DNA from: Candidatus Eiseniibacteriota bacterium | Lineage (GTDB): Bacteria; Orphanbacterota; Orphanbacteria; Orphanbacterales; Orphanbacteraceae | Length of the DNA stretch: 64,000 nt | Assembly: GCA_029262235.1 (NCBI GenBank) | Contig: JAJCZU010000002.1 | Span: forward strand, 1,142,927-1,206,926 | Direction of reading: 5' to 3' | Shown here: one piece after another, positions 45,127 to 61,195 of the stretch | Layout of the letters: every line of letters starts with the position of its first letter | How positions within the stretch are numbered: position 1 is the stretch's first letter | Made by a program: the position numbers and the translations under genes | The notes under the pieces: generated by a model | Database searches by the model: none | Told to the model about the DNA's origin: nothing | Seen by the model: only the letters and a program-made list of their open reading frames with translations

Positions 45127-46554
45127 ATGAGCGATCAGGATACGAAAACAGTGGAAAACAACCACCGTCGCGAGGGGGCTACCTCGGAGTCCATCCGCGA
45201 GGGGGGGCAGCTCACCGGGCGCGATATCTTCAAAGTCCTCTTTCGCCGCAAATGGGTCATCCTGCTGCTGTTCCTGACCACACTCGTCTTCGTTCTCTGG
45301 CAGGCGAGTCAGATTCCGACGGAATACCGCGCCACGGCGGAAGTATTGATCAATCGCGGACAGCGCAAGAGCGCGCTCGACAGAAACGTTTCGCTCCTGA
45401 CATGGGACGAAACGGTGGCGACCGAGCTGCAGATCGCCGAGAGTCGTCCGGTCATCAAGAGCGCGCAGGCCGCGCTCAATGCCGAGGCGGAAGCGAACGG
45501 TACCAAACCGATCGAGATCATCGCGAATAAAGTCCGGTCGCGACTCATGGAAGAGTCGAACGTGGTCGGAGTCATGTATACGTCACTCCGCGAGGAAGAC
45601 GCCCGGCCTGTGGCCAACGCGCTCGCGACCGCCTACATCGAGTACCACAAACAGCTCTTCGCGCTTCCCGACGCCACCTCGTTCTTTGTCGAACGCGTGG
45701 CGTCCGCGGAAGAAAACCTGACCGACCTCATGTCGCGTCGCCAGGCGATCAAAGAGGCGGGCACGATCACGCGCATGGCGACGCAGCAGGATCTGCTGCT
45801 CCAGGAAATGCGCACGATCCGCGAATCACTCATGAAGGACGAGAAGGAATACGCGGCGATGCAGACCGAGCTGGAACAGGCGCGACGGCTGTACCGGGGC
45901 GGAGTCGACATGCCGTTCGGCACCACGCGCGACGAGGGGAACGCCGGTCTCGCGCGCATCATGCTGCGTCTCAAGGAAGATCTGCTCAAGCTGAAGCAGA
46001 ACCGCGACCAGCTTCTTACGAAGTACACTCCGCAGCACCCGCAGGTGCTTGCGCTCGACGACCAGATTGAGAAAGTGCAGGAGAGTCTGACGGATGAGAC
46101 GGGCCAGGTTCTGCAGGTCAAGGAATCCGAGATCGCGATCAAGCGCTCCGAGATCCAGGATCTGCGGGAAAGCCTGAACAACCTGAACGCGAAAATGCGG
46201 GAGATGCCGCGGATCGAACGGGAACTGGACGACCTCGACAGGTCCATCGACCTCGCTAGCAAAGCGTACCAGGAACTGCTCGACAACCAGGTGCGCATTC
46301 AGGTGGCCGAAGTAAGCTCACGCGACTTTACGCTGACGCTGCTTTCGGATGCCGGCGCTCCCATCGCAAGCAACCCGCGCGACCCCGTGAGGCTCGCGCT
46401 CGTTCCCGCGTTCAGTCTGTTGGTCGGGGTCAGCCTGGCCTTCTTTCTCGAAACAATGGACCACTCCTTCAAGAGCCGTGAGGACGTGGAACGATATCTC
46501 GATCTTTCGGTGCTGGCTTCCGTGCCCGACCGGAAGAAAGCGTTGACCCGCTGA
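45127..46554 (+). CDS. polysaccharide co-polymerase / chain-length determinant (Wzz/GumC-like)
   Basis: 475 aa; N-terminal TM, long coiled-coil periplasmic region, C-terminal TM. Confidence 0.7.
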   Translation: MSDQDTKTVENNHRREGATSESIREGGQLTGRDIFKVLFRRKWVILLLFLTTLVFVLWQASQIPTEYRATAEVLINRGQRKSALDRNVSLLTWDETVATELQIAESRPVIKSAQAALNAEAEANGTKPIEIIANKVRSRLMEESNVVGVMYTSLREEDARPVANALATAYIEYHKQLFALPDATSFFVERVASAEENLTDLMSRRQAIKEAGTITRMATQQDLLLQEMRTIRESLMKDEKEYAAMQTELEQARRLYRGGVDMPFGTTRDEGNAGLARIMLRLKEDLLKLKQNRDQLLTKYTPQHPQVLALDDQIEKVQESLTDETGQVLQVKESEIAIKRSEIQDLRESLNNLNAKMREMPRIERELDDLDRSIDLASKAYQELLDNQVRIQVAEVSSRDFTLTLLSDAGAPIASNPRDPVRLALVPAFSLLVGVSLAFFLETMDHSFKSREDVERYLDLSVLASVPDRKKALTR

Positions 46555-46566
46555 CGGACGGAATCG

Positions 46567-47343
46567 ATGAGCAAGATTTATGAAGCGCTGAATCGCGCGC
46601 GAGACGACGACGACGATCCGAAGAAGCCGACGCCGCCGACCGAAAAGCCGGTGGGCACCGGTTCGGGCTCGGGTACGCGCGGTGGTTTCGATCCTCGCAT
46701 ACTGAGCGAGGAACTGCAGAAGGTCGCCGTCGACTACGAAGCGCTGCACAGCTCGATGGAGAAGACCCTTTCGACCGTCGCCGGCCATGCGATCATGATG
46801 GTCTCCTCGGTCGAGGAAGAGGGCACGACCACGGTCGCCGCGGAATACGCGAGCACGCTCGGACGCGGCATTCCGCGCGGCACGCTGCTGATCGACGCGA
46901 ACTTCAGGAACCCTACGCTTCACGACGTGTTCGGCGTGCCGAACGATACCGGTTTCGCCGACGTCCTCCAGGAGCGTGTCACCCTGAAGCAGGCCGTGCA
47001 GACGCTTGCCGAAAACGAACTGTATCTGCTGACGGCGGGCCTTGTCGATTTCTCGCCGAGCGCGCGCATTTCGGGTTCTGTCGTCTCCCGGTTTCTCGCC
47101 GAGGCGAAAGCCCAGTACGGCGCCGTCATCCTGGACGGACCTCCCGTCATTCCGTATCCCGAGGCGGTCCACATCGCGAGCGCGGCCGACGGCGTTGTTT
47201 TCATCATCGAGTCGGAACGGACGAAGCGCGAGATCGTCGCGCGGGCGAAGGATGCGCTCGACGCGGTCGATGCCAACATTCTCGGAGTCGTGCTGAATCG
47301 CCGCCGCTATGTCATACCGGAATTCCTGTATCGCCAACTCTAA
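46567..47343 (+). CDS. BY-kinase-like P-loop protein with degenerate Walker A
   Basis: 258 aa; CpsD/CapB-like layout but the Walker A position reads VSSVEEEGTTT with no GK[ST]; Walker B-like VILDGPP is present. Confidence 0.6.
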   Translation: MSKIYEALNRARDDDDDPKKPTPPTEKPVGTGSGSGTRGGFDPRILSEELQKVAVDYEALHSSMEKTLSTVAGHAIMMVSSVEEEGTTTVAAEYASTLGRGIPRGTLLIDANFRNPTLHDVFGVPNDTGFADVLQERVTLKQAVQTLAENELYLLTAGLVDFSPSARISGSVVSRFLAEAKAQYGAVILDGPPVIPYPEAVHIASAADGVVFIIESERTKREIVARAKDALDAVDANILGVVLNRRRYVIPEFLYRQL

Positions 47344-48598
47344 GCCGGACGCCCGCTTGCACTCGACCGATCCGTACACCGCACCTTTCGCGCCCGATCC
47401 GGACGTGGATCAATTCTACCGGGAGAAAGTGCGCGCGGTCGTCGACATCGTGCTCGGCGCATGGAACGGCGAAGCCCCCACTGTGGTGCTGAGCGGAAGT
47501 CTCGCACTCGGCGATGGGCGCGCTACACGCACTCCCGAAGGCCCCGGGCCCGCAAGCGACGTCGACCTCTATCTCGTAACAGAAGAAGCCGCGCACGCCG
47601 CCGCACTCACCGACCTTCCCCGCATCCACGGCGCGCTCCGACGTTCCGACCGCACGTCTGATCTCACGGTCGATCTCGGCGTCACGACTGCCGCGCGCCT
47701 CGCGGCCGCGCCCGTTTCGATCGCAAACCGAACGCTGGCCGAGCACGGACGTGTTCTGACCGGTGATCGGGAGGTGCTCGATGCGATGCGGTCCGTACGG
47801 GGAAGACCGATCCCGCCGGCGGACGGACTGCTGCTGCTGCAGAACCGCACGGTGGAAGCGCTCGTGCCTGTCGCTCTCTTCGGGGACTCATCGATGCACG
47901 ACGCTTTCTGGTATCTTCACGCGAAGACGCTGCGCGATATCGGACTCTCGGCGATTGTCGCCGCCGGGCGTTTCGCTCCGCGACCCGGCGACCGTGCGGA
48001 ACTCGTGCGGGCGACATGGGAAGAGAGTGAGCTCGGCAAGGTCGTTCCCGGTTTTCCCGCACGCTATGAAGAGTCCTCGGGCTCGTCTTCGCGCGGAAGC
48101 GCGCCTTCGCGCGGAAGCGGAAGCAGCGTGCGCGGCGAAACGGCGCTTCGGCGCGCATGGGAAGATCTCGGCACCACTCTGTTCGCCGTGGCGCGATGGG
48201 AGCACCGTACGATCGACCCGCATGCGAGCGACGATCCGAACAGCTGGGTGCGTGCCGGGAGCGGACCGCTTCGGAGGCGGGTCAAATCGTGGCTCCCGTT
48301 TGCCACAGGAGACCCCGGCGCTTTTGCGAAAGCGCTGACCCGGGGATTTCCGGGAACACCGATGCAGGGCGCCTACGTGGCGGCTTCGTGTCTCATGGCA
48401 TCCGCGGGGACCGCATGGGGAGGCGGCGCGCCCGATCAAGGCACGATGATTGCAGGAGCCCGGGCCATCTGCCCGTTCACCGTCAAGGATCGCCGCCCGG
48501 ACGCCGCATGGTGGGAACTCCGGAACGCGATCTGCGAGTACTGGAATGAAACGGTCCTCGGCGGAAGCCGCACGATCGAGAAGGGAGGTCCGCGATGA
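47309..48598 (+). CDS. hypothetical protein, possible nucleotidyltransferase-fold domain
   Basis: 429 aa; weak GS...DxD signature (LSGSLALGDG...SDVDLYLV); internal Ser/Gly-rich linker; start uncertain because it overlaps the upstream gene. Confidence 0.4.
   Translation: MSYRNSCIANSKPDARLHSTDPYTAPFAPDPDVDQFYREKVRAVVDIVLGAWNGEAPTVVLSGSLALGDGRATRTPEGPGPASDVDLYLVTEEAAHAAALTDLPRIHGALRRSDRTSDLTVDLGVTTAARLAAAPVSIANRTLAEHGRVLTGDREVLDAMRSVRGRPIPPADGLLLLQNRTVEALVPVALFGDSSMHDAFWYLHAKTLRDIGLSAIVAAGRFAPRPGDRAELVRATWEESELGKVVPGFPARYEESSGSSSRGSAPSRGSGSSVRGETALRRAWEDLGTTLFAVARWEHRTIDPHASDDPNSWVRAGSGPLRRRVKSWLPFATGDPGAFAKALTRGFPGTPMQGAYVAASCLMASAGTAWGGGAPDQGTMIAGARAICPFTVKDRRPDAAWWELRNAICEYWNETVLGGSRTIEKGGPR
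48087..48119. repeat. imperfect 18-bp tandem direct repeat (cttcgcgcggaagcg core x2) inside the coding sequence
   Basis: Read directly; it encodes the SSRGSAPSRGSGS low-complexity linker. Confidence 0.6.
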
Positions 48599-49749
48599 AG
48601 CGTGCCGTGCTGGCCGTTCTGATCGACGCCTTCGGCTATGACCTGCTCGATCGTCATCCGTTCATGCCGGAACTTGCAGAGCGCAGGCCGCTTGCAACGG
48701 TGGCCGGTTTCAGTTCATCCGCGATCCCGTCGCTCCTGACCGGCAAATGGCCGAACGAGCACGGGCGCTGGTTCCTGTACGGAAAAGCGGGCGAAACGAC
48801 GCCGTTCAGCAACGCGCGTCTCTACGCATGGGCGGAGAATCTGCCGAAGATCGGCATCCGCGCGCGCCAGCGTTATGAACGCGAGTTCGCCCGGACTTCC
48901 GGCATCAACGAGTATTACCATCTCTATAATATACCCTTGAAATATCTCCCCTCGTTCGACCTTCCCGGCAAGCGATCGATCTACGAACCGGGCGCGATCG
49001 AAGGCGTACCGAATCTTTTCGACAAGCTCGTCGAACACGAGATCCCCTACGCGTCCTGGAACTGGAGCACGCCCGAAGAGAAAAACTTCACGGAACTGCA
49101 CGCGACGATCCGCGAGGCGAAGCTTCCGTTCTATTTCCTCTACACGGCCGTGCTCGACGGCGTGATGCACGCGACGGGAACGGATTCGCCGGAAACCCGG
49201 GCGGTCATCGAGAGCAATCAGAAGTCGATTCGCGAGGCGGTGCGCATCGCGGAGGAATGCTACGACGAAGTCTCCCTCTACATTTTCTCGGATCACGGCA
49301 TGGTGAACGTCGAGACCGTGATCGATCTGATGAATGACGTGCGGGCGCTCCCTTTCGTCGAAGGGAAGGACTATCTGCCGTTCTACGACTCGACATACGC
49401 GCGCTTCTGGTTCCGGAACGAGCGCGCGGAGAAAGCGATCCGCGCACTGCTCGACTCCGCGGCGGGGGGCAGGCTGCTGTCACGCGGGGAACTCGAGCGC
49501 CTGCATGTATGGTTCCCGGACCGCGAATACGGCGACGCGATCTTTCTGACGGACGCCGGAACGGTCATCGCGCCGTCGTTCATGGGGAACGAACCGCCCC
49601 GCGCGATGCACGGATACCATCCTGAAGACGCCGGTTCGAACGGGATGCTGGTCGGGAGCCGGTCCATCCCCGCGGGAGTCACCTCGATCATGGATATGGC
49701 GCTCTTTCTCGAGCAGGAAGCGCGGCGCGCCCACGGGACCGGGTCGTGA
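48595..49749 (+). CDS. alkaline-phosphatase-superfamily enzyme (type I phosphodiesterase / nucleotide pyrophosphatase-like)
   Basis: Metal-ligand style motifs LIDAFGYD, SSSAIPSLLTG, FSDHGM, HGYH; 384 aa; ATGA overlap with the upstream gene. Confidence 0.7.
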   Translation: MKRAVLAVLIDAFGYDLLDRHPFMPELAERRPLATVAGFSSSAIPSLLTGKWPNEHGRWFLYGKAGETTPFSNARLYAWAENLPKIGIRARQRYEREFARTSGINEYYHLYNIPLKYLPSFDLPGKRSIYEPGAIEGVPNLFDKLVEHEIPYASWNWSTPEEKNFTELHATIREAKLPFYFLYTAVLDGVMHATGTDSPETRAVIESNQKSIREAVRIAEECYDEVSLYIFSDHGMVNVETVIDLMNDVRALPFVEGKDYLPFYDSTYARFWFRNERAEKAIRALLDSAAGGRLLSRGELERLHVWFPDREYGDAIFLTDAGTVIAPSFMGNEPPRAMHGYHPEDAGSNGMLVGSRSIPAGVTSIMDMALFLEQEARRAHGTGS

Positions 49750-51227
49750 GCACACTCGCGCGCGCCTCGCGGGCAGCCCCTTTCAGCCTCATCGCAAAAG
49801 CCGTCCGTTTCATCCTTTCGTTCGCGACCAGTATTCTGGTCGTGCGCATGCTTCCCGAGAACGAATACGGTGTACTTACGATCGTCCGCACGATCGCGTC
49901 GCTCGCGGGCGCGCTGATCGGCTTCGGAATGGGAAACGCAATCCTGCGCTTCCTGCCCGAACGCGAAGCGCAGGGAGAGGGGACCCGCGCGCTCCTGAAC
50001 TGGGCCGCGCTTCTGCCCATGGCCGCCTGGGCGGTCGTCACCGGCTGCGCGTTTCTGCTTCGCGACTCGATCGACGCCCTCTATGGAACGCCGATCGGAA
50101 CCCCGCTGCTCGCCGGCATCGCCCTGCTTTCCGGGAATCTCCTCTACACGATCCTGATGAACACATGGACGGCAACGTTTCGAACGCGGGAACTCGCGCT
50201 CGTGCAGTCCGTGCTCAGCTTCGCGATCCTGGCCGCTTCGTATGGCGCGATCCGCATGGGCTGGGGCGTGATCGGCGTCCTCGCCGCGAGCTCGCTCCCG
50301 TATCTGCTGGCCGCGATCGTGCGCGGCCCGGCCGTATGGCTGTCGCTCAAGCACGGGGCGGCGAGGCTGCCGGCCGGGCCGCTGCTTGCATACGGCATCC
50401 CCGTGGCGTTCGTCGACATTCTGAACCAGATCACGTGGCGCCAGTCCGAAACGATTCTGCTCGGGCATTACACGTCGGCCGCCGCGGCCGGCACGTTCGA
50501 TATCGCGTACAAGCTCCCGCAGCTGCTCGTCGAATTCGTGCCCGACACGATCTGGCCGCTCGTTCTGGCGGCATTCGCCGAGGTGTACACGCGGGACCGC
50601 TCCCGTCTCGACGAGATGATCCGGCGGTACTACCAGGTGCTTTTTCTGCTCGTGCTCCCCGTCAGCGTGTTCGGTGTGCTCTACGGGGACCTTCTGATTC
50701 AGACGGCCTACGGCGCGGAACGGGCCGAAGCCGGGCAGTACGCGCGGATCTTCTTTTTCATCTTTCATCTCACGTTCTGGGGCACGCCGCTCTCGATGGC
50801 CCTCTATCTTCTGAAGAAGACGAACGTGAATCTCTGGCTCGCGCTGGTGGCCGCCACGGTGAACGTCGGCCTCGACTTCGTGATGATTCCGAAGTACGGG
50901 CTGCGCGGGGCGGTGCCTCCGGTCGCGATCGCGGTCGCGCTGACGGCGATTCTCCGCGGAATCACGCTCCGGCGCATGCACGGGACGCTTCCCATACCAT
51001 GGCGATTTCTCGGCCGGGCCTATCTGGCAACGGCCCCGCTCGCGATTTTTTACCCGATTCGGGGCATGGGATCGCCTCAGACGGCTCTTTGTGCGATCAG
51101 TGCTTTGTCTCTTTTGCTGTTGCCCTTTACAATAAGGTTCGCGCGACTGCTCGGCGACGAGGAGCGCGAGTATCTCAGGCAGTCGGGCATTCCCGGACGC
51201 GAAATTCTCCTCCGGTGGTTCCGTTGA
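49746..51227 (+). CDS. polysaccharide flippase (Wzx, MOP superfamily)
   Basis: 493 aa polytopic membrane protein with Wzx-like N-terminus; GTG start overlapping the upstream stop. Confidence 0.75.
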   Translation: MSTLARASRAAPFSLIAKAVRFILSFATSILVVRMLPENEYGVLTIVRTIASLAGALIGFGMGNAILRFLPEREAQGEGTRALLNWAALLPMAAWAVVTGCAFLLRDSIDALYGTPIGTPLLAGIALLSGNLLYTILMNTWTATFRTRELALVQSVLSFAILAASYGAIRMGWGVIGVLAASSLPYLLAAIVRGPAVWLSLKHGAARLPAGPLLAYGIPVAFVDILNQITWRQSETILLGHYTSAAAAGTFDIAYKLPQLLVEFVPDTIWPLVLAAFAEVYTRDRSRLDEMIRRYYQVLFLLVLPVSVFGVLYGDLLIQTAYGAERAEAGQYARIFFFIFHLTFWGTPLSMALYLLKKTNVNLWLALVAATVNVGLDFVMIPKYGLRGAVPPVAIAVALTAILRGITLRRMHGTLPIPWRFLGRAYLATAPLAIFYPIRGMGSPQTALCAISALSLLLLPFTIRFARLLGDEEREYLRQSGIPGREILLRWFR

Positions 51228-51263
51228 TGCGGACACGGGGGTTCACGAACTACGGAGATCAGG

Positions 51264-51938
51264 ATGTATCGAGAGCGAACGGTATCGGCAGTGATTCCCT
51301 GCTACAACGAGGAGGAGGGGATCGCGCACGTCATCGAGTCGATGCCCGACTTCGTGGACGAAGTCGTCGTCGTCGACAACAATTCGACGGACCGCACAGC
51401 GGAAATTGCGACGAAGCTCGGCGCGCGGGTGATTCACGAAAAGCGCAAGGGTTACGGCGCGGCCTACAAAGCGGGGATTCCCGCGGCGAAGTCGGACATC
51501 ATCGTGACGATGGACGGCGACGGGACGTACCCGGTCGAGGAGATCAAGGATCTGATCGACTTCATGTTCGAGAAAGATCTCGACTTCGTTTCGGGTTGCC
51601 GGTTCCCGCTCAAGAACGCCGAAGCGATGCACTCCCTGAACAAGCTCGGCAACACGATCCTGACGATCGAAATGCTGATTCTGTATGCGCGCGGCATTCG
51701 CGATTCGCAGTCCGGCATGTGGTGCTTCAAGTCCGCAGTGTATCCGAAGTTCAAGATGACGTCGGACGGTATGCCGTTCTCCGAGGAGATCAAGATCGAA
51801 GCGATTCTCGCGAAGGACGTCAAGTTCGACGAGTATCACATTACGTATCATCAGCGAATCGGCGAAGTGAAGCTCAACATGTGGGCCGACGGCTTCGAGA
51901 ATCTCTTTTTCCTCGCAAAGAAGCGATTCTTCCGGTAG
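51264..51938 (+). CDS. family 2 glycosyltransferase (DPM1/GtrB-like polyprenyl-phosphate glycosyltransferase)
   Basis: VIPCYNEE start, DxD-type MDGDG motif; 224 aa with no obvious TM segment. Confidence 0.8.
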   Translation: MYRERTVSAVIPCYNEEEGIAHVIESMPDFVDEVVVVDNNSTDRTAEIATKLGARVIHEKRKGYGAAYKAGIPAAKSDIIVTMDGDGTYPVEEIKDLIDFMFEKDLDFVSGCRFPLKNAEAMHSLNKLGNTILTIEMLILYARGIRDSQSGMWCFKSAVYPKFKMTSDGMPFSEEIKIEAILAKDVKFDEYHITYHQRIGEVKLNMWADGFENLFFLAKKRFFR

Positions 51939-51983
51939 AGGGCGCCGCTGCGCGACACGCGCCGCGCGGGGGGGACATGTAGC

Positions 51984-54452
51984 ATGTTGTCCGTGCGCAT
52001 CGCCCGTACTCTCGTTCTCGTCACGCTGTTCGCGATCGCGCGCAGCCCTTTCTTTACGAGCCTCGCTCTTCCCCCGTTCGTTACGATGTCCGCCGCGCTT
52101 CTCGCCATCGTGCTCCCGGGCATCTGGCTCGCGCAGGCGGTGCGCGGAATCGACGATTCGCCCGCCGCCGCAATCTGCTGGGGATTCGCCTTCTCTCTCG
52201 CGCTCGTGTCAGCCGGTTCGATCGCGTTTCATCTTACGGGAGCGTTCGGCCTCGGCGCGCTTCTCGCCCTTGTCATGGTATGCGGGTACGCGATCGCTCT
52301 GCTCGTGCCGCCCCGGGCAGAATCAACGCCGCTTCTTGCCCGCGCCGAAACCTGGCTGCTCGTCGCAACCGTGGCGATCACGGCACTCGTGTCCTCACCG
52401 CGAACCGGCTACCTGACCGACGCGTACGATCATCTCGGCACGGTGCGCTGGATGACGATCGAGGATCGCGCCTATCCGGTCGAGTCGTTTCACGCGGACC
52501 GCGCGGCGGCGGGCACGCTCGATCCACGCAAGGGGACGTATCACACGACTTTCGCGCTCGCGAGCGACCTGACGGGCGTCGATCCGGTCGACGGCTACCG
52601 GACGTTCTGGGCGTTCACGCTGCTGCTCGCATTTGCTTCCGTGCTCACCGCGGCGCGCGCCTTTCTGACCGGAGAACGCGCCGCCTGGATCGCGTTCATT
52701 CTGTTCGTGGTGCTGCATCGCGGCGGCCCCGCGGGAGAGTGGTTCTCGACGGCGGGCTACCCGGGCTCGGCCGGGCTCTGGCTCTACCTGCTTTTCGTTT
52801 CGGTGATCGTACGCGGGCGCATGGCGCGCATGGCGCGCATGCCGCGCATGGCGTTGATCGCGCTCGGATTCGCGACGCTCGGCGTACATCTTTTCTACGG
52901 ACTGCTGGCCGGCCTCGCATTCCTGTATCTGTTCGCGGGGCTCTTGATCTTCCGCCGCGCGGAGGGCGCAGGCCTGGTGCTGCGCGGGGCGATCGCGTTC
53001 GGCGCGGGCGCATTGCCCGTCGCGATCTTTCGCTATTTCGCCACGTACGATCCCGCCAACCCGATCCATCTGCACCGTCAGGCCGTGATCGAACTGACCG
53101 ACCGGCTGGCGGTACTCGACGCGACCCCCGTTCTGCAGGCGTTCGGCATCGGCGGTCTGATCGCGCTGTTCTTTCTGCCGTTTCTCGACTGGCGCGGCAG
53201 AGACGAACAGGGGGGGCGGGGCGACCTGTTTCTGGGAACCTCGCTTGCCGGCACGTTCCTGATCGTATGGAATCCGATCGTGTTTCCGGCTCTCGAACCA
53301 CACCTCGGTTATCTCATGCGCCGGATTCCGTACGCGGTTCCGTGGGCCTTCGTCTTCGCGGCTGTCATGACCCGGACCATGGGGCCCGTCGGAACACCGG
53401 GCAGGACATCGATCTCCCGGGGCCGGCGCTCGATCGCGTGGGCGGCTCTGGCCGTCGTGGTCATTACCGCAGGCTGGGACGCGACACGCAGGCGTCCGCC
53501 CCGCGCAAAACCCGCGGCGGGCGTCGAAGAGATCGCGCAGCAGGTCGTGGCGGACGCGGCGAAACTGCTCCCGCCCGGCACGACGGTCCTGACCGATCCC
53601 GTAACCGGATACGTGCTCTTCGGGCGCACCTCGCTCCGGCCGGTTGCCATTCTCGACCAGCACTCGTCGCCGAACGATCCGCTGGCCGCACGCCGCCTCT
53701 CCGAAAGCCAGCGCGCGCTTCACCCCGCAACGAGCGAAGCCGAACGCCTGGACGTCATGAACCAGTACGAAACCCGTCACATTCTGCTCGTGACGGGGTA
53801 TCCCCGCGATTTTCAGACATACAACGCGTTCTATTCGCCCGGAATGGCGTCCACGATGGACGCGGTTCTCACCGGCCGGACGACGTTCGACACGATCATG
53901 CGCACCGAACAGGCCGTGCTCTACCGTCTGGACGGCCGTGAATCGGTCGTGCCGCCGGGTGACCGTCGCCCCTGGGCCACAGCGGGCTCGCTCACGCGCC
54001 CCGGGGGCCCCGCGGACCTCCCGGGGGGCATCAGGCTCACGGGAGCGCGTCTCGGGACGTCTGAGGGGCGTCCGGGAGATCTCGTGTGGCTCGAAAGTGA
54101 GTGGACGCTCCCTCATGAGGATGCCGGGGCCGTGCCGATGCTTCTTTATATAACGGGAGTCCGGCTGGAGGAGGGCTCCGATCCTGTGAGAACGCGTGCG
54201 GAGAGGCCCTGGAAGATCTTCTCCCTCGGCGGCCGTGAATTTCCGTATCTTCTCTGGAAGAAGAAGGAGCGGATCGCGTATGACGCCCCGCTTCGGATTC
54301 CGGAGCGGATCGCGCCTGGCCGGTACGAAGTGCAGGTCACGACGGATCGGCATCCGTTTTTCGCCGTGCGCAGACTTGAGAGGAACGGCCTTCGCTGGAG
54401 CGCCGCCCGCACGGGTTGGACGGCCGTTGATACAGTCGAGGTGATGCCTTGA
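51984..54452 (+). CDS. large polytopic membrane protein, unknown family (GT-C-like candidate), paralogue 1
   Basis: 822 aa; multiple N-terminal TM helices plus a C-terminal soluble domain; shares sequence blocks with the 55944..58451 product. Confidence 0.6.
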   Translation: MLSVRIARTLVLVTLFAIARSPFFTSLALPPFVTMSAALLAIVLPGIWLAQAVRGIDDSPAAAICWGFAFSLALVSAGSIAFHLTGAFGLGALLALVMVCGYAIALLVPPRAESTPLLARAETWLLVATVAITALVSSPRTGYLTDAYDHLGTVRWMTIEDRAYPVESFHADRAAAGTLDPRKGTYHTTFALASDLTGVDPVDGYRTFWAFTLLLAFASVLTAARAFLTGERAAWIAFILFVVLHRGGPAGEWFSTAGYPGSAGLWLYLLFVSVIVRGRMARMARMPRMALIALGFATLGVHLFYGLLAGLAFLYLFAGLLIFRRAEGAGLVLRGAIAFGAGALPVAIFRYFATYDPANPIHLHRQAVIELTDRLAVLDATPVLQAFGIGGLIALFFLPFLDWRGRDEQGGRGDLFLGTSLAGTFLIVWNPIVFPALEPHLGYLMRRIPYAVPWAFVFAAVMTRTMGPVGTPGRTSISRGRRSIAWAALAVVVITAGWDATRRRPPRAKPAAGVEEIAQQVVADAAKLLPPGTTVLTDPVTGYVLFGRTSLRPVAILDQHSSPNDPLAARRLSESQRALHPATSEAERLDVMNQYETRHILLVTGYPRDFQTYNAFYSPGMASTMDAVLTGRTTFDTIMRTEQAVLYRLDGRESVVPPGDRRPWATAGSLTRPGGPADLPGGIRLTGARLGTSEGRPGDLVWLESEWTLPHEDAGAVPMLLYITGVRLEEGSDPVRTRAERPWKIFSLGGREFPYLLWKKKERIAYDAPLRIPERIAPGRYEVQVTTDRHPFFAVRRLERNGLRWSAARTGWTAVDTVEVMP
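52817..52852. repeat. tandem repeat, 4 copies of a 9-bp unit gcgcatggc (third copy gcgcatgcc)
   Basis: Read directly; in frame, encoding RMARMARMPRMA within paralogue 1. Confidence 0.8.
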
Positions 54453-55930
54453 AACGACAATCGACGATAGGAAAAGTGCTGAGCCCGCAACTCATCTGGG
54501 CGCTCTTCACCATTGCGCTCACGATGGTGCTCGGCTACGTGCTCGCGGGACAGATCATCTCGCCGAATCAGCGCATCATCAAAGCCTCGGTCGGTCTCGC
54601 GCTTCTCACGACGGCGTTTCTGCTTCCGAACCGCTTCGCCGTGGCGTTCATGCTTTTCGCGATCCCGTTTCCGCAGAACACGACCATTGGATCGACAACG
54701 GTCATCTTCGCGTTCATCATCTTTTCGTTCTGGCTCCTCAAGATGGCTCTCGGGTACGAAAAACCTCCGATCCTCACAGGTCTCGAGCCGTGGCTCGTCG
54801 CCATCGTGCTTCTCTACTTCATCTCGTTCGTCATGGTGCAACCGAACGAAATGAAGCAGGCGGTTGCGGGCTTCCAGACTTTCATTTCCGCTGTCTTCAT
54901 CTTTTATCTCGTCACGAACATGGTGCGAACCGAACGCGACATTCAATTCGTTCTGAACGCGCTGATCATTTCGTTTTCCGTTGTGGCCACGATCGCGATG
55001 ATCGAACTCTGGCTGCCGGGCGCGGCCGACAAGCTCGGGTTCCTGAAGGTTTCCACGCGCACGGTGGGGAAGGCGTCGGGCGTGCGCGTCGGCTCCGTAT
55101 TCGGCGACTACGAAATGTTCGCGGAGTACTGCGCGATCTTCATACCGATTCTTCTGATTCGCGTGATCGGCGAGAAAGTATTCCTGCGCCAGTTCATCTG
55201 GATGCCGCTTCTGGGCGTCGCCATCATGCTTCTGATCGGCACCGCTACGCGCGGCGCGTTTCTGAGCATGCTCATCGGCCTGACTTACCTGGTCTGGATT
55301 TCGTGGCGCATCATGGACTTTCAGAAGTTTCTGCCGCTCGTTATCGTCGCGGCCGTCGCGTTCTACGTATTCGCCATTACGCTCGACCAGTACACCGAAT
55401 CGGCGTCGCTGTTCGGGCGGCTCGGAAGAACGAAGCTCGTCGACGGAATGCCGGACACGAGGGCCCGCGTCTGGAACGAAGCGTGGATTCGCATTCAGGA
55501 CTCGCCCTGGATCGGCCATGGGCCTTACTACTTCACCGGCGTCGACGAGCGAAACGTGCATTCGAATTACCCGCACAGCCTGTTTCTCTTTCTGGCGCAC
55601 ATGATCGGCATCCCGGGCGCCGTGCTTTTTTACGGCTTTCTGCTCGCCATTTTCAGGCGGGGCTACATGGCGGCCCGGGCTTTCGCAACGGAGCGAGGTC
55701 AGTTCGCCTATACCGTGGTGATTCTATCGAGCTGCATGGTTATTTTTCTGATCGACGAATTCAAAATCTCGTTCCTGCGGTACGATCAGACGCAGCAGTT
55801 CACGTGGACGATGTTCGCGCTCGTTCTCGCCGCGAGCCGCGTGGCCATGATGCGCGTGGAAGAACGCAAGAACCAAAACCTGCCAGCGACTCTGCGCAGG
55901 AACGCGACCCGCTCCGCGCGCATCGCCTGA
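54449..55930 (+). CDS. O-antigen polymerase / ligase family protein (Wzy-like)
   Basis: 493 aa polytopic protein with a Wzy_C-like block (GTATRGAFLSM...WIGHGPYYF...HSNYPH); TTG start overlapping the upstream stop. Confidence 0.7.
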   Translation: MKRQSTIGKVLSPQLIWALFTIALTMVLGYVLAGQIISPNQRIIKASVGLALLTTAFLLPNRFAVAFMLFAIPFPQNTTIGSTTVIFAFIIFSFWLLKMALGYEKPPILTGLEPWLVAIVLLYFISFVMVQPNEMKQAVAGFQTFISAVFIFYLVTNMVRTERDIQFVLNALIISFSVVATIAMIELWLPGAADKLGFLKVSTRTVGKASGVRVGSVFGDYEMFAEYCAIFIPILLIRVIGEKVFLRQFIWMPLLGVAIMLLIGTATRGAFLSMLIGLTYLVWISWRIMDFQKFLPLVIVAAVAFYVFAITLDQYTESASLFGRLGRTKLVDGMPDTRARVWNEAWIRIQDSPWIGHGPYYFTGVDERNVHSNYPHSLFLFLAHMIGIPGAVLFYGFLLAIFRRGYMAARAFATERGQFAYTVVILSSCMVIFLIDEFKISFLRYDQTQQFTWTMFALVLAASRVAMMRVEERKNQNLPATLRRNATRSARIA

Positions 55931-55943
55931 TCCCTGAGGACCC

Positions 55944-58451
55944 ATGCTCCTTGCACGCCTTCTGAGCCTTCTCGGTATCGTCGGAACGCTCGGGCTCTTT
56001 CTGCCCGGCCGCTTTCGTGTGTTCGCGATTCTGGCTGCGGCCTCCGTTCTGCCGGGGCACGCGCTGCTCGTTCGCACGGCATGGGGGAGGCAGCAGAGCC
56101 CGTGGATGCGCGCCACCGCGTCGATTGCCACGTCATGGGCGCTCTTCTTCGTGGCCATCGTCATTGCGGAGCGGCTTCAGATCGGCACGGGCTGGTTCTC
56201 CATCCCGCTGCTCGCCGCCACGCTTCTCGGCTCGTTCGTGGCCTGGCTCCCGCCGAGGATTCCGGTTGCGGACGGAGGGAGAGAGACCGGCGCGCTGATC
56301 GTGCTACTGACGGTTCTCGCTGCGCTCGCGCTGGCGCGCGGCGCCTCGGTCACACTCGCGACGGATGCTCTCGATCACATCGCTTATCTCAAGGAGATCG
56401 TGCACACGGGCGATCCGTTTCCGCTGACGTCTTACTACGACCCGTCCACCGACACGGCGTACGACATCCGCAAGGGATTTTTTCAGCCGGTGCAGGCGGC
56501 CGTACTCGTTGCCACCGGATGCGATGCGGTGGAAGGGTGGCACGCCTTTCCCGCGGTGGTGCTGCTTCTCAGCGGCCTCGCGTTCTTCGCACTCGCGCGG
56601 GAAACTCTCGGGGACGCGCGGGCGGGCGTGATCGCAACCGCGGTCTATCTCCTCGGGTTCGACGCGGGAATCGCGGGTGTCTGGTTCGGACGCGCGTGCA
56701 CGCCGTTTCTGTTTTCGGCGCCGCTTGTCTGGGGAATTCTGCTTCTTGCGTATCGAGCGGGGCGCGGGGAGAAAACGCCGTTCGTTCTTCCGTTCGTCTT
56801 CGGCTTCGCCATCATGGGCGCGCACATCTTCGCCGCGGTCGTCGCCGGACTCCTTGCCGCGCTCTACGCGTTTCTGCACGTACTCCGTTGGAAGGGGCGC
56901 GCGCTTCGTTCTTTCAGCGCCGCTCTCGGACTCATTGCCGCGGGCATGCTGCCGCTCGGACTCTGGCGGTTCGCGACGAGCTATCCGCCGGTCGACCCGG
57001 TGCACACGCATCTCCAGGGAGTCGTTACCGTAAGCGAGGGACTGTTCTTCTCGACACCCGTTCTCGCGGTCGCGCGGCTCGGACTCTTTTCGCTCCTCGC
57101 GATCCCGGCAACGATTCTGCTCGGCAGACGCTTATGGAAAGAGGAAGGCGTATTCTTCGCGGGGGCCGTTACGATCGGCCCGCTGCTGCTCATTTTCAAC
57201 CCGCTTCTTGTCCCCGTGCTCGCCAGGATCGCGGGGTATCTCGTCGCCCGTCTCGCCTGGTTCGGCGGTTACGCCCTCGTGTGGGGAGCGCTCCTCGGTC
57301 ACTGGTTCCGCAGCCGTGCTCCGGGTGACCGGAACACGGCACTCGCCAGGGGCGCCGGGGTCGCGGCGCTGCTCGTGTTTCTCGGCACGCTGAGCCTCGG
57401 CGATCGTCAGGAGGACTGGCGCAAGCTGCAATGGATGCGGACGGCACCGCGCGCGGAATGGCACGTCGAGACCTGGCCCGATCTGATCGGGCTTCTGAAC
57501 ACGCTGCCCGCACGTTCGCGGATCGCGTCCGATCCGCTGACCTCGTATATGATTCCGGCGTTCACGTCGCACAAGGTGACCACGCTGCTCGCGCAGCATT
57601 CATCACCGGCGGATCCTGTTGCGCCCGCGCGTCTGCAGGACGCCGTACGCATTCTTTCGCCGTTTACGAGCGCGCGCGAGACGTGGGACGCGCTCCGGCG
57701 CCGGGACGCGGATTATCTGGTGCTGAATTTCCGTTTCGAGAAGCCCGTTGTGCTCTTCTACAGCGGAATCGATCCCGCGCTCCACGAAGCGACCCTCGCG
57801 AAGTTCCGGCGTGACCCGGACCGCTATGAGGAGATCGGGGCGATGGACCGCTGTCATCTTTTCCGGATCGTGAAAAGCGCGCCTGCGCCGGAGCCCGGCG
57901 TCCCGGACGGGATGGCGGCGATGACCCCGGAAGTGGCCCTGTTGCCCCCGGATGCCACGCCGGTCGCTCCGAACGCGAGCCCCGCGGGCATACAGCTGCT
58001 GGCGGCGTCGCTCGGCACGAAGACCGTGTCGCCGGGAGACACGATTCCGCTTACCCTTTACTGGACACGCGGGGCGGGCAAGGTCGGCCCGATCCCGGAA
58101 AGGCTCTATCTGCGCCTCGACAGCCGGGAGCCCGGGGCGATCGATCGCGATTCTCCGATCGGCAAGCTGACCCGCAAATGGAGACAGACACGCGAAGGGA
58201 AGCTGTTCCGGGCGCGCACGAGCAGAAACCTCGTGCGCGGAAGCCTGCCGGCGTTTCTCTGGCATCCCGGAGCGATTCTCGTCGATTCGATCGCGATTCA
58301 GGTCCCTGCCCGGATGGCGCCCGGCCGGTACGCCGTGGAGGCCATGCTCCGCCCCCATGCGCACATTCAGGTCTACCACTGGACCGACTTCCTTCGCGAA
58401 GAGGATTCGTTCAGCGGTATCACCGTAGGAGAACTGGAGATACGGCCGTAA
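55944..58451 (+). CDS. large polytopic membrane protein, unknown family (GT-C-like candidate), paralogue 2
   Basis: 835 aa; same architecture and shared blocks with the 51984..54452 product (DAxDH...RKG loop, xDPxxPxHxHL, QHSSPxDP, PGRY). Confidence 0.6.
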   Translation: MLLARLLSLLGIVGTLGLFLPGRFRVFAILAAASVLPGHALLVRTAWGRQQSPWMRATASIATSWALFFVAIVIAERLQIGTGWFSIPLLAATLLGSFVAWLPPRIPVADGGRETGALIVLLTVLAALALARGASVTLATDALDHIAYLKEIVHTGDPFPLTSYYDPSTDTAYDIRKGFFQPVQAAVLVATGCDAVEGWHAFPAVVLLLSGLAFFALARETLGDARAGVIATAVYLLGFDAGIAGVWFGRACTPFLFSAPLVWGILLLAYRAGRGEKTPFVLPFVFGFAIMGAHIFAAVVAGLLAALYAFLHVLRWKGRALRSFSAALGLIAAGMLPLGLWRFATSYPPVDPVHTHLQGVVTVSEGLFFSTPVLAVARLGLFSLLAIPATILLGRRLWKEEGVFFAGAVTIGPLLLIFNPLLVPVLARIAGYLVARLAWFGGYALVWGALLGHWFRSRAPGDRNTALARGAGVAALLVFLGTLSLGDRQEDWRKLQWMRTAPRAEWHVETWPDLIGLLNTLPARSRIASDPLTSYMIPAFTSHKVTTLLAQHSSPADPVAPARLQDAVRILSPFTSARETWDALRRRDADYLVLNFRFEKPVVLFYSGIDPALHEATLAKFRRDPDRYEEIGAMDRCHLFRIVKSAPAPEPGVPDGMAAMTPEVALLPPDATPVAPNASPAGIQLLAASLGTKTVSPGDTIPLTLYWTRGAGKVGPIPERLYLRLDSREPGAIDRDSPIGKLTRKWRQTREGKLFRARTSRNLVRGSLPAFLWHPGAILVDSIAIQVPARMAPGRYAVEAMLRPHAHIQVYHWTDFLREEDSFSGITVGELEIRP

Positions 58452-58578: not shown

Positions 58579-59676
58579 ATGAATATTCCGTTCGTCGACC
58601 TCAAGTCGCAGTACGCAGGCATTCGTGATGAAGTTGCCGAAGCTGTTCAGGGGATTCTCGACAATACCGCGTTCATCGGCGGCAAGCCTGTGAAAGACTT
58701 CGAGGAGGCGTTCGCCGCCATGGAAGGCGCGCGCTTCGCCGTGGGAACGAGTTCCGGTACGTCTTCGCTTCACATCGCCCTCGAAGCGGCCGGGGTCGGC
58801 CCCGGCGACGAAGTCATCACCGTGCCGAACACGTTCATCGCGACGACCGAGTCCATCAGCCAGTGCGGCGCCAAGTTCCGGTTCGTCGATATCGAGCCGC
58901 TGCGCCACAACATGGATCCGGCGAAGATCGAAGCGGCCATCACGCCGAAGACGAAAGCCATCGTGCCGGTTCACCTGTACGGCCAGCCGGCCGACATGGC
59001 CCCGATCATGGCGATCGCGAAGAAGCACGACCTGATCGTGATCGCCGACTGCGCGCAGGGTCACTGCGCGACGTACGACGGAAAGAAGATGGGCGAGCTC
59101 TGCCACGCTTCGACATACAGTTTTTACCCGGGCAAGAACCTCGGCGCGTACGGCGACGCCGGCGCACTCGTCACGAACGACGAGGCGCTCGCAAAGAAAT
59201 GCGCGCAGCTGATCGACCACGGCCGCTCGGGCAAGTACGAGCACAATCTCGAAGGGTACAATTACCGGCTCGACGGGATACAGGCGGCGATCCTGCAGGT
59301 GAAGCTCAAGTACATCGAGGGCTGGACCGAAGCGCGGCGCGCGGCGGCCTCCTATTATCGGGAACGCCTGACTTCGCTTCCGATCGAAGTGAATCAGGAA
59401 GCGAAGGGTTCGCGCCACGTCTACCACCTCTTCTCTGTGTTTCACGAAGACAGAGACCGACTGCGGGAGGGACTCGAGGCAAAAGGCATTGCCGCCGGAA
59501 TCCACTATCCGATTCCGCTGCATCTGCAGGTGGCGTATGCCGACCGTGGATACGCGAAGGGAGATTTCCCGATCGCCGAGAAGAGCGCGGCCACCCAGCT
59601 CTCTCTGCCCATTTTTCCGGAACTGACGAAGGAACAGATCGACCACGTTGTCGATACGCTCGGGTCGCTGCTGTAG
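58579..59676 (+). CDS. DegT/DnrJ/EryC1/StrS-family PLP-dependent sugar aminotransferase
   Basis: 365 aa; typical start MNIPFVDLKSQY; AAGIHYPIPLHLQ block; AGGAGAG before the ATG. Confidence 0.9.
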   Translation: MNIPFVDLKSQYAGIRDEVAEAVQGILDNTAFIGGKPVKDFEEAFAAMEGARFAVGTSSGTSSLHIALEAAGVGPGDEVITVPNTFIATTESISQCGAKFRFVDIEPLRHNMDPAKIEAAITPKTKAIVPVHLYGQPADMAPIMAIAKKHDLIVIADCAQGHCATYDGKKMGELCHASTYSFYPGKNLGAYGDAGALVTNDEALAKKCAQLIDHGRSGKYEHNLEGYNYRLDGIQAAILQVKLKYIEGWTEARRAAASYYRERLTSLPIEVNQEAKGSRHVYHLFSVFHEDRDRLREGLEAKGIAAGIHYPIPLHLQVAYADRGYAKGDFPIAEKSAATQLSLPIFPELTKEQIDHVVDTLGSLL

Positions 59677-59707
59677 CACGCCCGGCCTGATCCCTTTCGC
59701 GGAGACC

Positions 59708-61195
59708 ATGTTGGATTCCAAACTCGCATCGTTACGGAGTCGCCGTTCGCGGAACCGCGCACTCCTGCTTGTCCTGAGCGACATGATTCTCGTCGCGGCG
59801 AGCTTCCTGTTTGCGTACTGGTTCCGGCTGCAGTCCGGGTTCTTTCTGCGAACCATTCCACTCGAGTCGTACCATTTCCTCTCGCTCGGGGCCGTCTGCC
59901 TCGTCTGGGTGATGATCATGAGCGCGCACGGGCTGTACCGGCGCGAAGTGTATCTCTCCGTGTTCGATCAGATGGTCGGCATATTCAATTCCGTGAACCT
60001 GGGCGTACTGCTCGTCCTGTTTCTCGCGTTCGTTACGAAGTTCGACTACTTCCTCGAGCGACGTCTCGTGCTGCTCGTCGCCTGGGTCATGGCGATCACG
60101 CTGCTTACAGGTACGCGCGTTTTTCTCTATCGCGGCCTTTTTCTGACGCGCATCGCGAAGGATCCGTTCCGGTGTCGCATTCTGATCGTGGGCGCGGGCG
60201 AAACAGGCACGCAGTTTCTGCAGCTCGTCCGTCACACGAAAGACCATGTGTACGACGTGGTGGGGTTTCTCGACGACGACCCCGCGAAACACGGACAGAC
60301 GGTCGAAGACATTCGCATTCTCGGGAAAGTGGACGATATCGAAGACATCGTGGCCCGCCTCAATATCGAACGCGTGTTCGTGGCCGTGCAGAAAATCGGG
60401 CAGGAGGGGCTGATCGATCTGATCTCCCGCTGCATGCGGTCGAAGGTCCCCGTCAAAATGATTTCCGATCAGTTCCACATGTTTGCCGCGGACGGCGCGA
60501 TCGAACGAATCGACGGCGTACCGACGCTCGCCGTGCGCGATACGCCGATGACGGGTTTCCATTTTCTGATGAAGCGGGCGTTCGACGCCACGACCGCGGG
60601 CGTGCTGCTGATCGTGCTCGCCCCGCTCTTTCTCGCGCTGGCGATCATGATCAAGACAGTAGGCGGGCGCGGCCCGGTCTTCTTCAGGCAGACCCGCGCG
60701 GGGCAGGGCGGAAAGCCGTTCAACTTCTACAAATTCCGTTCGATGCGGACCGACATGGACGACGCGGTCCATCGCGACTACGCGAAGAACTTCGTTTCAG
60801 GAGAAGCGAAAGCGACTTCGGATTCCGAAGCGGACACGCCTGTCTATAAGATGAAACGCGATCCGCGCGTGACGGGAATCGGATGGATTCTGCGCAAGAC
60901 GTCGCTCGACGAACTCCCGCAGCTCTTCAACGTTGTGAAGGGGGAAATGAGCCTCGTCGGGCCGCGACCGCCGATTCTGTACGAACTGCAGTACTACAAA
61001 GAGTGGCACCGGCGGCGCCTCGACGCGAAACCCGGCCTCACCGGTCTCTGGCAGGTGAGCGGGCGGAGCAGCGTGCCGTTCAACGAAATGGTGCTTCTCG
61101 ACCTCTATTACATCGATCACTGGTCCTTGAAGCTGGATTTTGAGATCATGTTGCGCACCGTCCCGGTTATACTGTTCGGGAAGGGCGCTTACTAA
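59708..61195 (+). CDS. undecaprenyl-phosphate sugar phosphotransferase, long form (WbaP/WcaJ-like)
   Basis: About 495 aa; N-terminal TM bundle, central Rossmann-like region, C-terminal bacterial sugar transferase domain (PRP...[10 protein letters not shown]). Confidence 0.85.

What the first reader, a model, noticed from the sequence alone, without database searches (positions are those of the whole stretch)
52817..52852. In-frame 9-bp tandem repeat (x4) inside large membrane protein paralogue 1
gcgcatggc gcgcatggc gcgcatgcc gcgcatggc encodes (RMA)2-RMP-RMA in a predicted loop. Such short tandem repeats can expand or contract by slipped-strand mispairing without breaking the frame, giving length variation in a surface-polysaccharide protein.
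Basis: seen in the sequence. Interest (0 to 1): 0.4.

Follow-up and report, generated by a model that had tools for sequence, protein, structure and literature searches.

The report
Short in-frame repeat in membrane glycosyltransferase
A real 9-base repeat (four copies, encoding Arg-Met-Ala) sits in a short inward-facing turn of a large inner-membrane sugar-transferase-like protein; it looks like an ordinary recent slippage duplication, and I found no sign that it varies today.

Summary
Window 52817-52853 holds 4.1 copies of GCGCATGGC, with one G>C change in unit 3. It is the best tandem repeat in the window and no shuffle reached it. It lies in frame in ORF 51984-54452 and encodes RMA-RMA-RMP-RMA (aa 279-290).

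The gene is real. It has a 27%-identical paralogue, syntenic orthologues and more than 1100 family representatives. Its AlphaFold model (pLDDT 92) has a GT-C glycosyltransferase fold. The gene lies in a Wzx/Wzy-type exopolysaccharide cluster of a Gemmatimonadota-like genome.

The repeat covers the turn between two transmembrane helices. Across the family this turn is net positive, so it is probably cytoplasmic and not surface-exposed.

The two closest orthologues lack the array. The nearest (81% nt identity) is exactly 18 bp, or two units, shorter. The helix-turn-helix segment is 42 aa in 80 of 113 relatives; here it is 43 and in that orthologue 37. A second, nearly identical assembly (1 SNP in 3.8 kb) has the same four copies.

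Best reading: a young slippage duplication in a tolerant, length-constrained cytoplasmic turn. It is neutral or length-restoring, and it is not a contingency locus. Interest is low.

The parts
52817..52853 (+). Tandem array: 4.1 copies of the 9-bp unit GCGCATGGC, with G>C in unit 3. It encodes R279-MA-RMA-RMP-RMA290.
51984..54452 (+). Gene for an 822-aa GT-C-fold integral membrane protein ('paralogue 1'). It has about 14 TM helices plus a C-terminal extracytoplasmic domain.
   Evidence: Orthologues at 69-100% identity. Family of 1123 representatives. AF2 pLDDT 92, pTM 0.93. Foldseek matches to DPY19, AglB, AftA, ArnT and PglB. No Pfam or NCBIfam hit.
52761..52814 (+). Transmembrane helix aa 260-277, upstream arm of the hairpin.
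   Evidence: DSSP on the AF2 model; hydropathy.
52815..52838 (+). Turn aa 278-285 (GRMARMAR), inferred to be cytoplasmic. It is made almost entirely of repeat units.
   Evidence: AF2 DSSP; the 10-residue pLDDT blocks covering the turn (aa 271-280 and 281-290) average 88 and 74. Family-wide net charge is +2.1 at this loop, and loop charges alternate in/out along the protein.
52839..52886 (+). Helix aa 286-301, downstream arm. Its first turn (MPRMA) is still repeat sequence. It ends just before the nearly invariant H302.
55944..58451 (+). Paralogue 2 (835 aa). It has no repeat at the homologous turn (YRAGRGEKTP).
54449..55930 (+). Wzy_C / O-antigen-ligase-like membrane protein between the two paralogues.
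   Evidence: Pfam PF04932, E 8e-17.
51264..51938 (+). GT2 glycosyltransferase immediately upstream. Its exact protein served as a handle to find a second assembly (L005).

Best explanation
The array is the product of replication slippage, that is tandem duplication of a 9-bp unit, within this lineage. It lies inside the gene for a GT-C-fold inner-membrane glycosyltransferase-like protein of an exopolysaccharide cluster. It encodes Arg-Met-Ala triplets that form the short cytoplasmic turn, and the first turn of the following helix, of a transmembrane helical hairpin. That turn is poorly conserved in sequence across the family, but it is basic and tightly constrained in length. An Arg-rich insertion of two units is therefore tolerated. 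It may even restore the canonical hairpin length: 43 aa here against a family mode of 42, whereas the nearest orthologue has 37. The array is a neutral or mildly compensatory indel, not a regulatory or contingency device. Its present mutability is expected to be low, because it has only four copies and one is imperfect.

Shown: the repeat, its frame, its absence in the orthologues, the two-unit length difference, the loop position in the model, the family length constraint and the family charge pattern.

Inferred: the cytoplasmic orientation, the direction and age of the indel, and the low present-day variability.
For: - The repeat is real and non-random.
- It is in frame in a conserved gene.
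- Orthologue L002 (Gemmatimonadetes MAG, 80.6% nt identity) reads ...CGG GCC GCG TAT CTT CCG CTC GCG... at this site. It is exactly 18 bp shorter with no repeat. Orthologue L001 (70.7% nt identity) has a non-repetitive RKRNDNEGAP turn.
- All 8 degenerate third-codon positions of the four units are identical, whereas 38.5% of third positions differ between the window and L002. This suggests a young array.
- The AF2 model (pLDDT 92) places aa 278-285 as the turn between helices 260-277 and 286-301.
- The segment P260-H302 is 42 aa in 80 of 113 relatives. The window has 43, P0002 has 42 and P0003 has 37.
- The least hydrophobic 9-mer of that segment is net positive in 94% of relatives. Loop charges alternate along the protein, with this loop at +2.1.
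- A second assembly with 1 synonymous SNP in 3836 bp has the identical array.
- The tract has no unusual DNA secondary structure (z = 0.02).
Against: - The direction of the 18-bp difference is not resolved. The outgroup P0002 has the canonical 42 aa and a Pro at the same distance from the downstream anchor as the window. The alternative is therefore possible: an array or long turn in the common ancestor, with a contraction in the P0003 lineage.
- The recency argument is weak. The chance of 0 changes at 8 sites is about 0.17, at an assumed per-lineage third-position change of about 20% (roughly half the 38.5% difference).
- Only one additional near-identical assembly could be examined, and it may come from the same environment or study. 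Population-level stability is therefore essentially untested.
- The membrane orientation rests on the positive-inside rule and a predicted model, not on experiment.
Confidence: 0.7

Rival explanations
1. One reading: an actively variable in-frame VNTR. The array expands and contracts by slipped-strand mispairing within populations. This produces length variants of the loop and so heterogeneity in polysaccharide synthesis or modification.
For: - Near-perfect units (35 of 36 bases) in tandem are the substrate for slippage.
- The close orthologue differs by exactly two units.
- In-frame tandem-repeat copy-number variation is documented in other high-GC bacteria, for example M. tuberculosis pe/ppe genes and VNTR loci (PMC12817950).
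Against: - There are only four copies of a 9-bp unit, one of them imperfect.
- From my own knowledge, slippage rates fall steeply with low copy number.
- A near-identical second assembly has the same allele.
- The turn is inferred to be cytoplasmic, in an inner-membrane enzyme, so there is no obvious diversifying selection.
- The hairpin length is strongly constrained in the family (42 aa in 80 of 113), which argues against free length variation.
Confidence: 0.12
2. Reverse direction: the array, or a long turn, was already present in the common ancestor of the window organism and the L002 organism. The L002 lineage then lost two units by contraction and diverged afterwards.
For: - The outgroup P0002 has 42 aa with a Pro 10 residues before the GF/GL anchor, as in the window. 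P0003, at 37 aa, is the outlier in the family.
- P0003's RAA-YLP can be read as a degenerate RMA-RMP.
Against: - The 18 bp of L002 that would correspond to two units match them at only about 9 of 18 positions, against about 81% in the rest of the gene.
- The window units are identical at all synonymous sites, which an old array would need ongoing homogenisation to explain.
Confidence: 0.15
3. Chance low-complexity sequence in a GC-rich genome, or an assembly artefact.
For: The genome is 62% G+C, with many weak TRF rows scoring 30-59.
Against: - None of 600 shuffles reached the observed run.
- The TRF score of 67 is the top of the window.
- The tract is 37 bp, shorter than a typical short sequencing read (my general knowledge; the read lengths behind these assemblies were not examined).
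- An independent Logan assembly reproduces it exactly.
Confidence: 0.01
4. A DNA- or RNA-level element, such as an array of protein-binding or methylation sites (CATG and GCGC every 9 bp), an internal start codon or a structured RNA, rather than a feature that matters only as coding sequence.
For: There are four in-frame ATG codons and four CATG/GCGC palindromes at 9-bp spacing.
Against: - The folding energy equals that of shuffles (z = 0.02).
- There is no Rfam hit in the window.
- No purine-rich Shine-Dalgarno-like sequence lies before any of the ATGs.
- The element is absent from the orthologues, which keep the same gene order.
Confidence: 0.02

Closest known systems
In-frame coding VNTRs or minisatellites of bacteria, for example B. 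anthracis vrrA (12-bp unit, from my own knowledge) and M. tuberculosis pe/ppe in-frame repeat variants (PMC12817950)
   Same: The tandem unit is a multiple of 3 inside an ORF. Copy-number change keeps the frame. The length difference from a relative equals a whole number of units.
   Different: Copy-number polymorphism among strains, the property that defines a VNTR, is not demonstrated here. The array is short (4 copies). It lies in a cytoplasmic membrane-protein turn, not in a surface or secreted repeat domain.
Contingency (phase-variable) simple-sequence-repeat loci in surface-polysaccharide genes, for example Haemophilus lic and Neisseria lgt tetranucleotide or homopolymer tracts (my own knowledge)
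   Same: A repeat tract inside a gene of a surface-glycan pathway, with slippage as the proposed mechanism.
   Different: Those tracts have units not divisible by 3, or sit in promoters, and have many copies, so slippage switches expression on and off. Here the unit is 9 bp with four copies, so no switching is possible.
GT-C fold glycosyltransferases (DPY19, AglB/PglB/STT3, ArnT, AftA/AftB): the host protein
   Same: Multi-helix membrane domain plus an extracytoplasmic C-terminal domain. Foldseek probability 1.0, E 5e-7 to 6e-4. Conserved acidic and His residues lie in a large loop on the inferred extracytoplasmic side (D146, D149, H150, D180).
   Different: Sequence identity is only 10-15% and TM-scores 0.31-0.41. 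No PDB sequence hit. No Pfam or NCBIfam family for the window protein. Donor, acceptor and activity are unknown.
Pfam DUF6541 (PF20176)
   Same: Distant relatives P0004 and P0005 score just above the gathering threshold (32.6 and 31.9 bits against 29).
   Different: The window protein and its paralogue give no hit even at E <= 10.

Membership tests
Phase-variable contingency SSR locus | A change in repeat copy number alters the reading frame or promoter spacing, giving an on/off or graded expression switch | tested here: not met
   The unit is 9 bp and lies in frame inside the ORF, 833 nt from the start codon. Any whole-unit change keeps the frame.
Phase-variable contingency SSR locus | A long tract, typically many copies of a 1-8 bp unit, giving a high slippage rate | tested here: not met
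   4.1 copies of a 9-bp unit, with one unit carrying a substitution.
In-frame coding VNTR | Tandem units whose length is a multiple of 3 inside an ORF | tested here: met
In-frame coding VNTR | Copy number differs among strains or within a population of the same species | tested here: inconclusive
   One near-identical assembly (L005, 1 SNP in 3836 bp) has the same 4.1 copies. The species-level relatives L002 and L001 lack the array, and L002 is two units shorter. No other close relatives turned up in genome contigs or metagenome contigs. Reads could not be examined.
GT-C fold glycosyltransferase (host protein) | Membrane domain with the GT-C architecture | tested here: met
   AF2 pLDDT 92, pTM 0.93. 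The top 19 Foldseek PDB matches are all GT-C enzymes, E 5e-7 to 6e-4, probability 1.0.
GT-C fold glycosyltransferase (host protein) | Conserved acidic catalytic residue(s) in an extracytoplasmic loop next to the membrane | tested here: inconclusive
   D146, D149 and H150 (at least 90% conserved) and invariant D180/R182 lie in the 137-200 loop, inferred to be extracytoplasmic. Their equivalence to the catalytic Asp of solved GT-Cs was not checked residue by residue.
GT-C fold glycosyltransferase (host protein) | Transfers sugar from a polyprenyl-phosphate-linked donor | not testable with these tools
   This needs biochemistry. The context is compatible: Wzx flippase, Wzy_C, two Bac_transf initiating transferases, GT2 and GT4 genes.
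Pfam DUF6541 (PF20176) | Score at or above the gathering threshold of the family HMM | tested here: not met
   No hit for either window paralogue at E <= 10. Only the distant relatives P0004 and P0005 pass marginally.

The most novel reading that the evidence does not exclude
The array is a functioning in-frame length switch. Gain or loss of RMA units changes the length and charge of the cytoplasmic turn of a length-constrained transmembrane hairpin that leads to the nearly invariant His302. This would tune or disable an uncharacterised GT-C enzyme and create heritable, reversible heterogeneity in the exopolysaccharide of an environmental Gemmatimonadota population.
Probability: 0.06. Interest if true: 0.45.

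Novelty: new member of a known kind. Interest (0 to 1): 0.15.

Why it matters
The repeat itself matters little. It is one more example of a short slippage-generated in-frame indel in a tolerant loop. Its practical use is as a possible strain-typing marker, or as a natural 'length experiment' on a transmembrane hairpin whose length is otherwise fixed at 42 aa in about 70% of relatives.

The host protein is more interesting. It belongs to a large family (at least 1123 representatives at 50% identity) of uncharacterised GT-C-fold proteins. They occur as a conserved triad, GT-C, Wzy-like, GT-C, in an exopolysaccharide cluster shared by Gemmatimonadota and Ca. Eisenbacteria.

Tried and rejected
- Exact look-ups of the window protein and of P0001 found no contig on record.
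- The genome-contig scan found only the L002 MAG contig again.
- The metagenome scan with the close-relative alignment found nothing.
- A degenerate DNA pattern for the conserved WFxTAGYPGxAG motif found only one distant relative, L004, which has no repeat.
- A second word-based protein search with the alignment added no new relatives.
- Look-ups through identical neighbouring proteins (GT2, phosphodiesterase, DegT) each reported a second contig of 20-50 kb. That contig was never returned, so a possible third assembly could not be read. The look-up of paralogue 2 found nothing.
- A DNA hairpin as a driver of slippage or as a functional element was rejected (z = 0.02).
- Rfam and tRNA scans of the window were empty.
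- A PDB sequence-profile search gave no meaningful hit.
- The literature search for DUF6541 returned nothing.
- The overlapping ORFs 52280-53941 (+), 52395-54353 (-) and 52696-53301 (-) were treated as artefacts of the GC-rich sequence. I did not test them directly. Homologues, synteny and the paralogue all support the 51984-54452 frame.

Full report
**1. The observation.**
Window 52817-52852 reads gcgcatggc gcgcatggc gcgcatgcc gcgcatggc, followed by one more g. TRF reports 52817-52853, period 9, 4.1 copies, 92% matches, no indels and score 67. That is the highest of all 37 tandem-repeat rows in the 64-kb window. I measured the longest period-p self-match allowing up to 2 mismatches. The observed value is 28 positions at period 9. 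In 300 dinucleotide-preserving shuffles the mean was 16.4, sd 1.1 and maximum 22. In 300 triplet shuffles the maximum was 20. None reached 28. The repeat is therefore real and not a by-product of the 62% G+C composition. An independent Logan assembly (L005) reproduces it base for base, which excludes an assembly artefact.

**2. The gene and reading frame.**
ORF 51984-54452 (+, 822 aa) reads the tract as G278-RMA-RMA-RMP-RMA-L291. This is the true frame for three reasons:
- It has full-length orthologues at 69% identity (P0002) and 82% identity (P0003, partial, from a Gemmatimonadetes MAG), with the same gene order around them.
- A profile search of 1.84 billion representatives finds 1123 relatives at E <= 1e-3, of which 244 are at E <= 1e-30.

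The other long ORFs overlapping the site are best explained by the high G+C content.

**3. What the protein is.**
Neither paralogue hits Pfam or NCBIfam, even at permissive thresholds. Only the distant relatives P0004 and P0005 touch DUF6541, at 32 bits against a cut-off of 29. There is no sequence relative in the PDB.

An AlphaFold2 model built on a 113-sequence alignment is confident, with mean pLDDT 92.1 and pTM 0.93. Foldseek against the PDB returns only GT-C glycosyltransferases in the top 19 matches: C-mannosyltransferase DPY19, AglB, PglB/STT3, ArnT, AftA and AftB. E-values are 5e-7 to 6e-4, probability 1.0, TM-scores 0.31-0.41 and identity 10-15%. The C-terminal beta-sandwich resembles the Wzt carbohydrate-binding domain and NPC2 (E about 5e-3).

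Nearly invariant residues in the family are D146, D149, H150, D180, R182, G184, H187, H302, P431 and R447. There is also a C-terminal DPxTxY ... HxxPxD block.

The neighbouring genes are as follows:

| Gene | Position in window |
|---|---|
| Wzz/EpsF-like chain-length determinant | 45127-46554 |
| Tyrosine-autokinase-like protein | 46567-47343 |
| Phosphodiesterase-family protein | 48595-49749 |
| Wzx-type flippase | 49746-51227 |
| GT2 | 51264-51938 |
| Wzy_C protein, between the two paralogues | 54449-55930 |
| DegT aminotransferase | 58579-59676 |
| Bac_transf | 59648-61195 |

The host is therefore an uncharacterised GT-C-fold membrane protein of a Wzx/Wzy-type exopolysaccharide cluster. 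The fold assignment is a tool result. The enzymatic activity is inference.

**4. Where the repeat sits in the protein.**
In the model, helix 260-277 is followed by a non-helical stretch 278-285 (GRMARMAR) and then helix 286-301 (MPRMALIALGFATLGV). The 10-residue pLDDT blocks for aa 271-280 and 281-290 average 88 and 74. The repeat thus supplies the whole turn of a transmembrane hairpin plus the first turn of the next helix.

I took the model's helices as boundaries and counted K+R minus D+E for each loop over the 113 relatives. The result alternates strictly along the chain: +1.0, 0.0, +0.6, 0.0, +1.4, -2.5, +0.6, +0.1, +2.1, 0.0, +1.3, -0.9, +1.9, 0.0, +2.2. The repeat-bearing loop is at +2.1. 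The least hydrophobic 9-mer of the hairpin is net positive in 94% of relatives.

By the positive-inside rule (established knowledge) the turn is cytoplasmic. The large acidic loop 137-200, H302 and the C-terminal domain are on the outside, as in known GT-C enzymes. This orientation is inferred, not measured.

**5. Comparison with relatives.**
At the homologous site the 82-85%-identical orthologue P0003 reads VRG-RAA-YLP-LAALGF. Its DNA is ...CGG GCC GCG TAT CTT CCG CTC GCG.... It is exactly 18 bp, two units, shorter than the window and has no repeat. The 69%-identical P0002 reads VRK-RNDNEGAPVF-ALATLGL. It is one residue shorter and non-repetitive. More distant relatives have unrelated basic turns, such as CRRGTGRRG and CRRKRKARG. 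Paralogue 2 has YRAGRGEKTP.

The length of the segment from P260 to H302 is strikingly fixed. It is 42 aa in 80 of 113 relatives. The window has 43, P0002 has 42 and P0003 has 37. The array therefore does not make this protein unusually long. It brings the protein to the canonical length, and the nearest relative is the short outlier.

Two histories fit these facts:
- (a) The common ancestor of the window organism and P0003 carried a short 37-aa hairpin of the form RxA-xxP-L..ALGF. The window lineage then regained two units by duplication.
- (b) The ancestor carried about 43 aa, and the P0003 lineage lost two units.

I favour (a). The four units are identical at all 8 degenerate third positions, while 38.5% of third positions differ between the two genes. 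The 18 bp of L002 match two units at only about half of their positions. The statistical weight is small, however, with P about 0.17. The outgroup's Pro position favours (b). Either way, the difference of exactly two units is what a slippage-type event would leave.

**6. Is it variable now?**
I found a contig from Logan run SRR15505513 (L005) by using the identical GT2 protein as a handle. It matches window 50580-54415 with a single synonymous difference, 51899 G>A in GT2 codon 212. It carries the same 4.1 copies, including the G>C unit. This is one data point for stability in a nearly identical genome.

Look-ups also reported a further contig of 20-50 kb encoding identical neighbouring proteins, but it was never returned. 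No other close relatives exist in the genome or metagenome collections. The reads themselves could not be examined.

My prior is low. The array has four copies of a 9-bp unit, one of them imperfect. It has no special DNA structure (z = 0.02). It cannot change the frame. It sits in a length-constrained cytoplasmic turn with no exposure to phage or immune selection.

**7. Mechanism, committed.**
My best explanation (confidence about 0.7) is a young slippage duplication of a CGC-ATG-GCG unit. It is tolerated because only net positive charge and length matter at this turn. It may have been selected because it restores the 42-43-aa hairpin geometry that positions H302 at the outer face.

The rivals are:
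- An active in-frame VNTR (about 0.12).
- A contraction in the sister lineage from an ancestral array (about 0.15). This changes the history but not the nature of the feature.
- A DNA- or RNA-level element (about 0.02).
- Chance or artefact (about 0.01).

**8. Comparison with known systems, and novelty.**
The array works like an in-frame coding VNTR. Examples are B. anthracis vrrA (my own knowledge) and the M. tuberculosis pe/ppe in-frame variants (PMC12817950). The defining property, polymorphism among strains, is not shown here. It fails both sequence-level criteria of a contingency locus: no frame or promoter effect, and no long tract. It is a new instance of a well-known kind of feature. 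I score interest at 0.15.

The host family and its conserved cluster are the more noteworthy by-product. The cluster runs GT2, GT-C, Wzy_C, GT-C, DegT and onward. It is syntenic over about 17 genes between Gemmatimonadota and Ca. Eisenbacteria.

Noticed in passing
window 42786-63315; L001 1-22451; L002 1-11489; L008 1-20427: The whole exopolysaccharide cluster of about 17 genes keeps the same order in the window, in two Gemmatimonadota-like contigs and in a Candidatus Eisenbacteria MAG (GCA_016930695). The order is Bac_transf, Poly_export, Wzz-like, kinase-like, unknown, phosphodiesterase, Wzx, GT2, GT-C 1, Wzy_C, GT-C 2, DegT, Bac_transf/CoA_binding, GFO_IDH, then GT4 x2. The conserved GT-C / Wzy-like / GT-C triad has no described function that I know of.
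   Followed up: partly
window 51984-54452 and 55944-58451: Both paralogues belong to a large family (1123 representatives at E <= 1e-3) with a confident GT-C-fold model, but neither has Pfam or NCBIfam coverage. Nearly invariant residues are D146, D149, H150, D180, R182, G184, H187, H302, P431, R447, D538-P-x-T-x-Y543 and H560-x-x-P-x-D565.
   Followed up: partly
window 52761-52889 (aa 260-302): The helix-turn-helix segment between the conserved Y-P and H302 is exactly 42 aa in 80 of 113 relatives, although its sequence is almost unconserved. This is an unusually strict length constraint. The partial orthologue P0003 breaks it, at 37 aa.
   Followed up: yes
window 54012-54452 (about aa 677-822): The C-terminal beta-sandwich of the model matches the Wzt O-antigen carbohydrate-binding domain and NPC2 lipid-binding proteins (Foldseek E about 5e-3, probability 1.0). 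This hints at a glycan- or lipid-binding module.
   Followed up: no
window 46567-47343 and 47309-48598: The 258-aa ORF resembles polysaccharide tyrosine autokinases (TIGR01007, 106.3 bits against a cut-off of 108.05). The adjacent 429-aa ORF has no family in Pfam or NCBIfam, although it is conserved in position in L001, L002 and L008.
   Followed up: no
L005 position 1320 = window 51899: The only difference between the window and the Logan SRR15505513 contig over 3836 bp is a synonymous G>A in GT2 codon 212. A further contig of 20-50 kb encoding identical GT2, phosphodiesterase and DegT proteins is on record but was never returned.
   Followed up: partly
window 16819-16933 and 17650-17696: These are the next-best tandem-repeat rows of the window. 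The first region has periods 20 and 18 with scores 52-58. The second is 24 bp x2 with score 59. Both lie inside ORFs 16771-17565 and 17587-18558.
   Followed up: no
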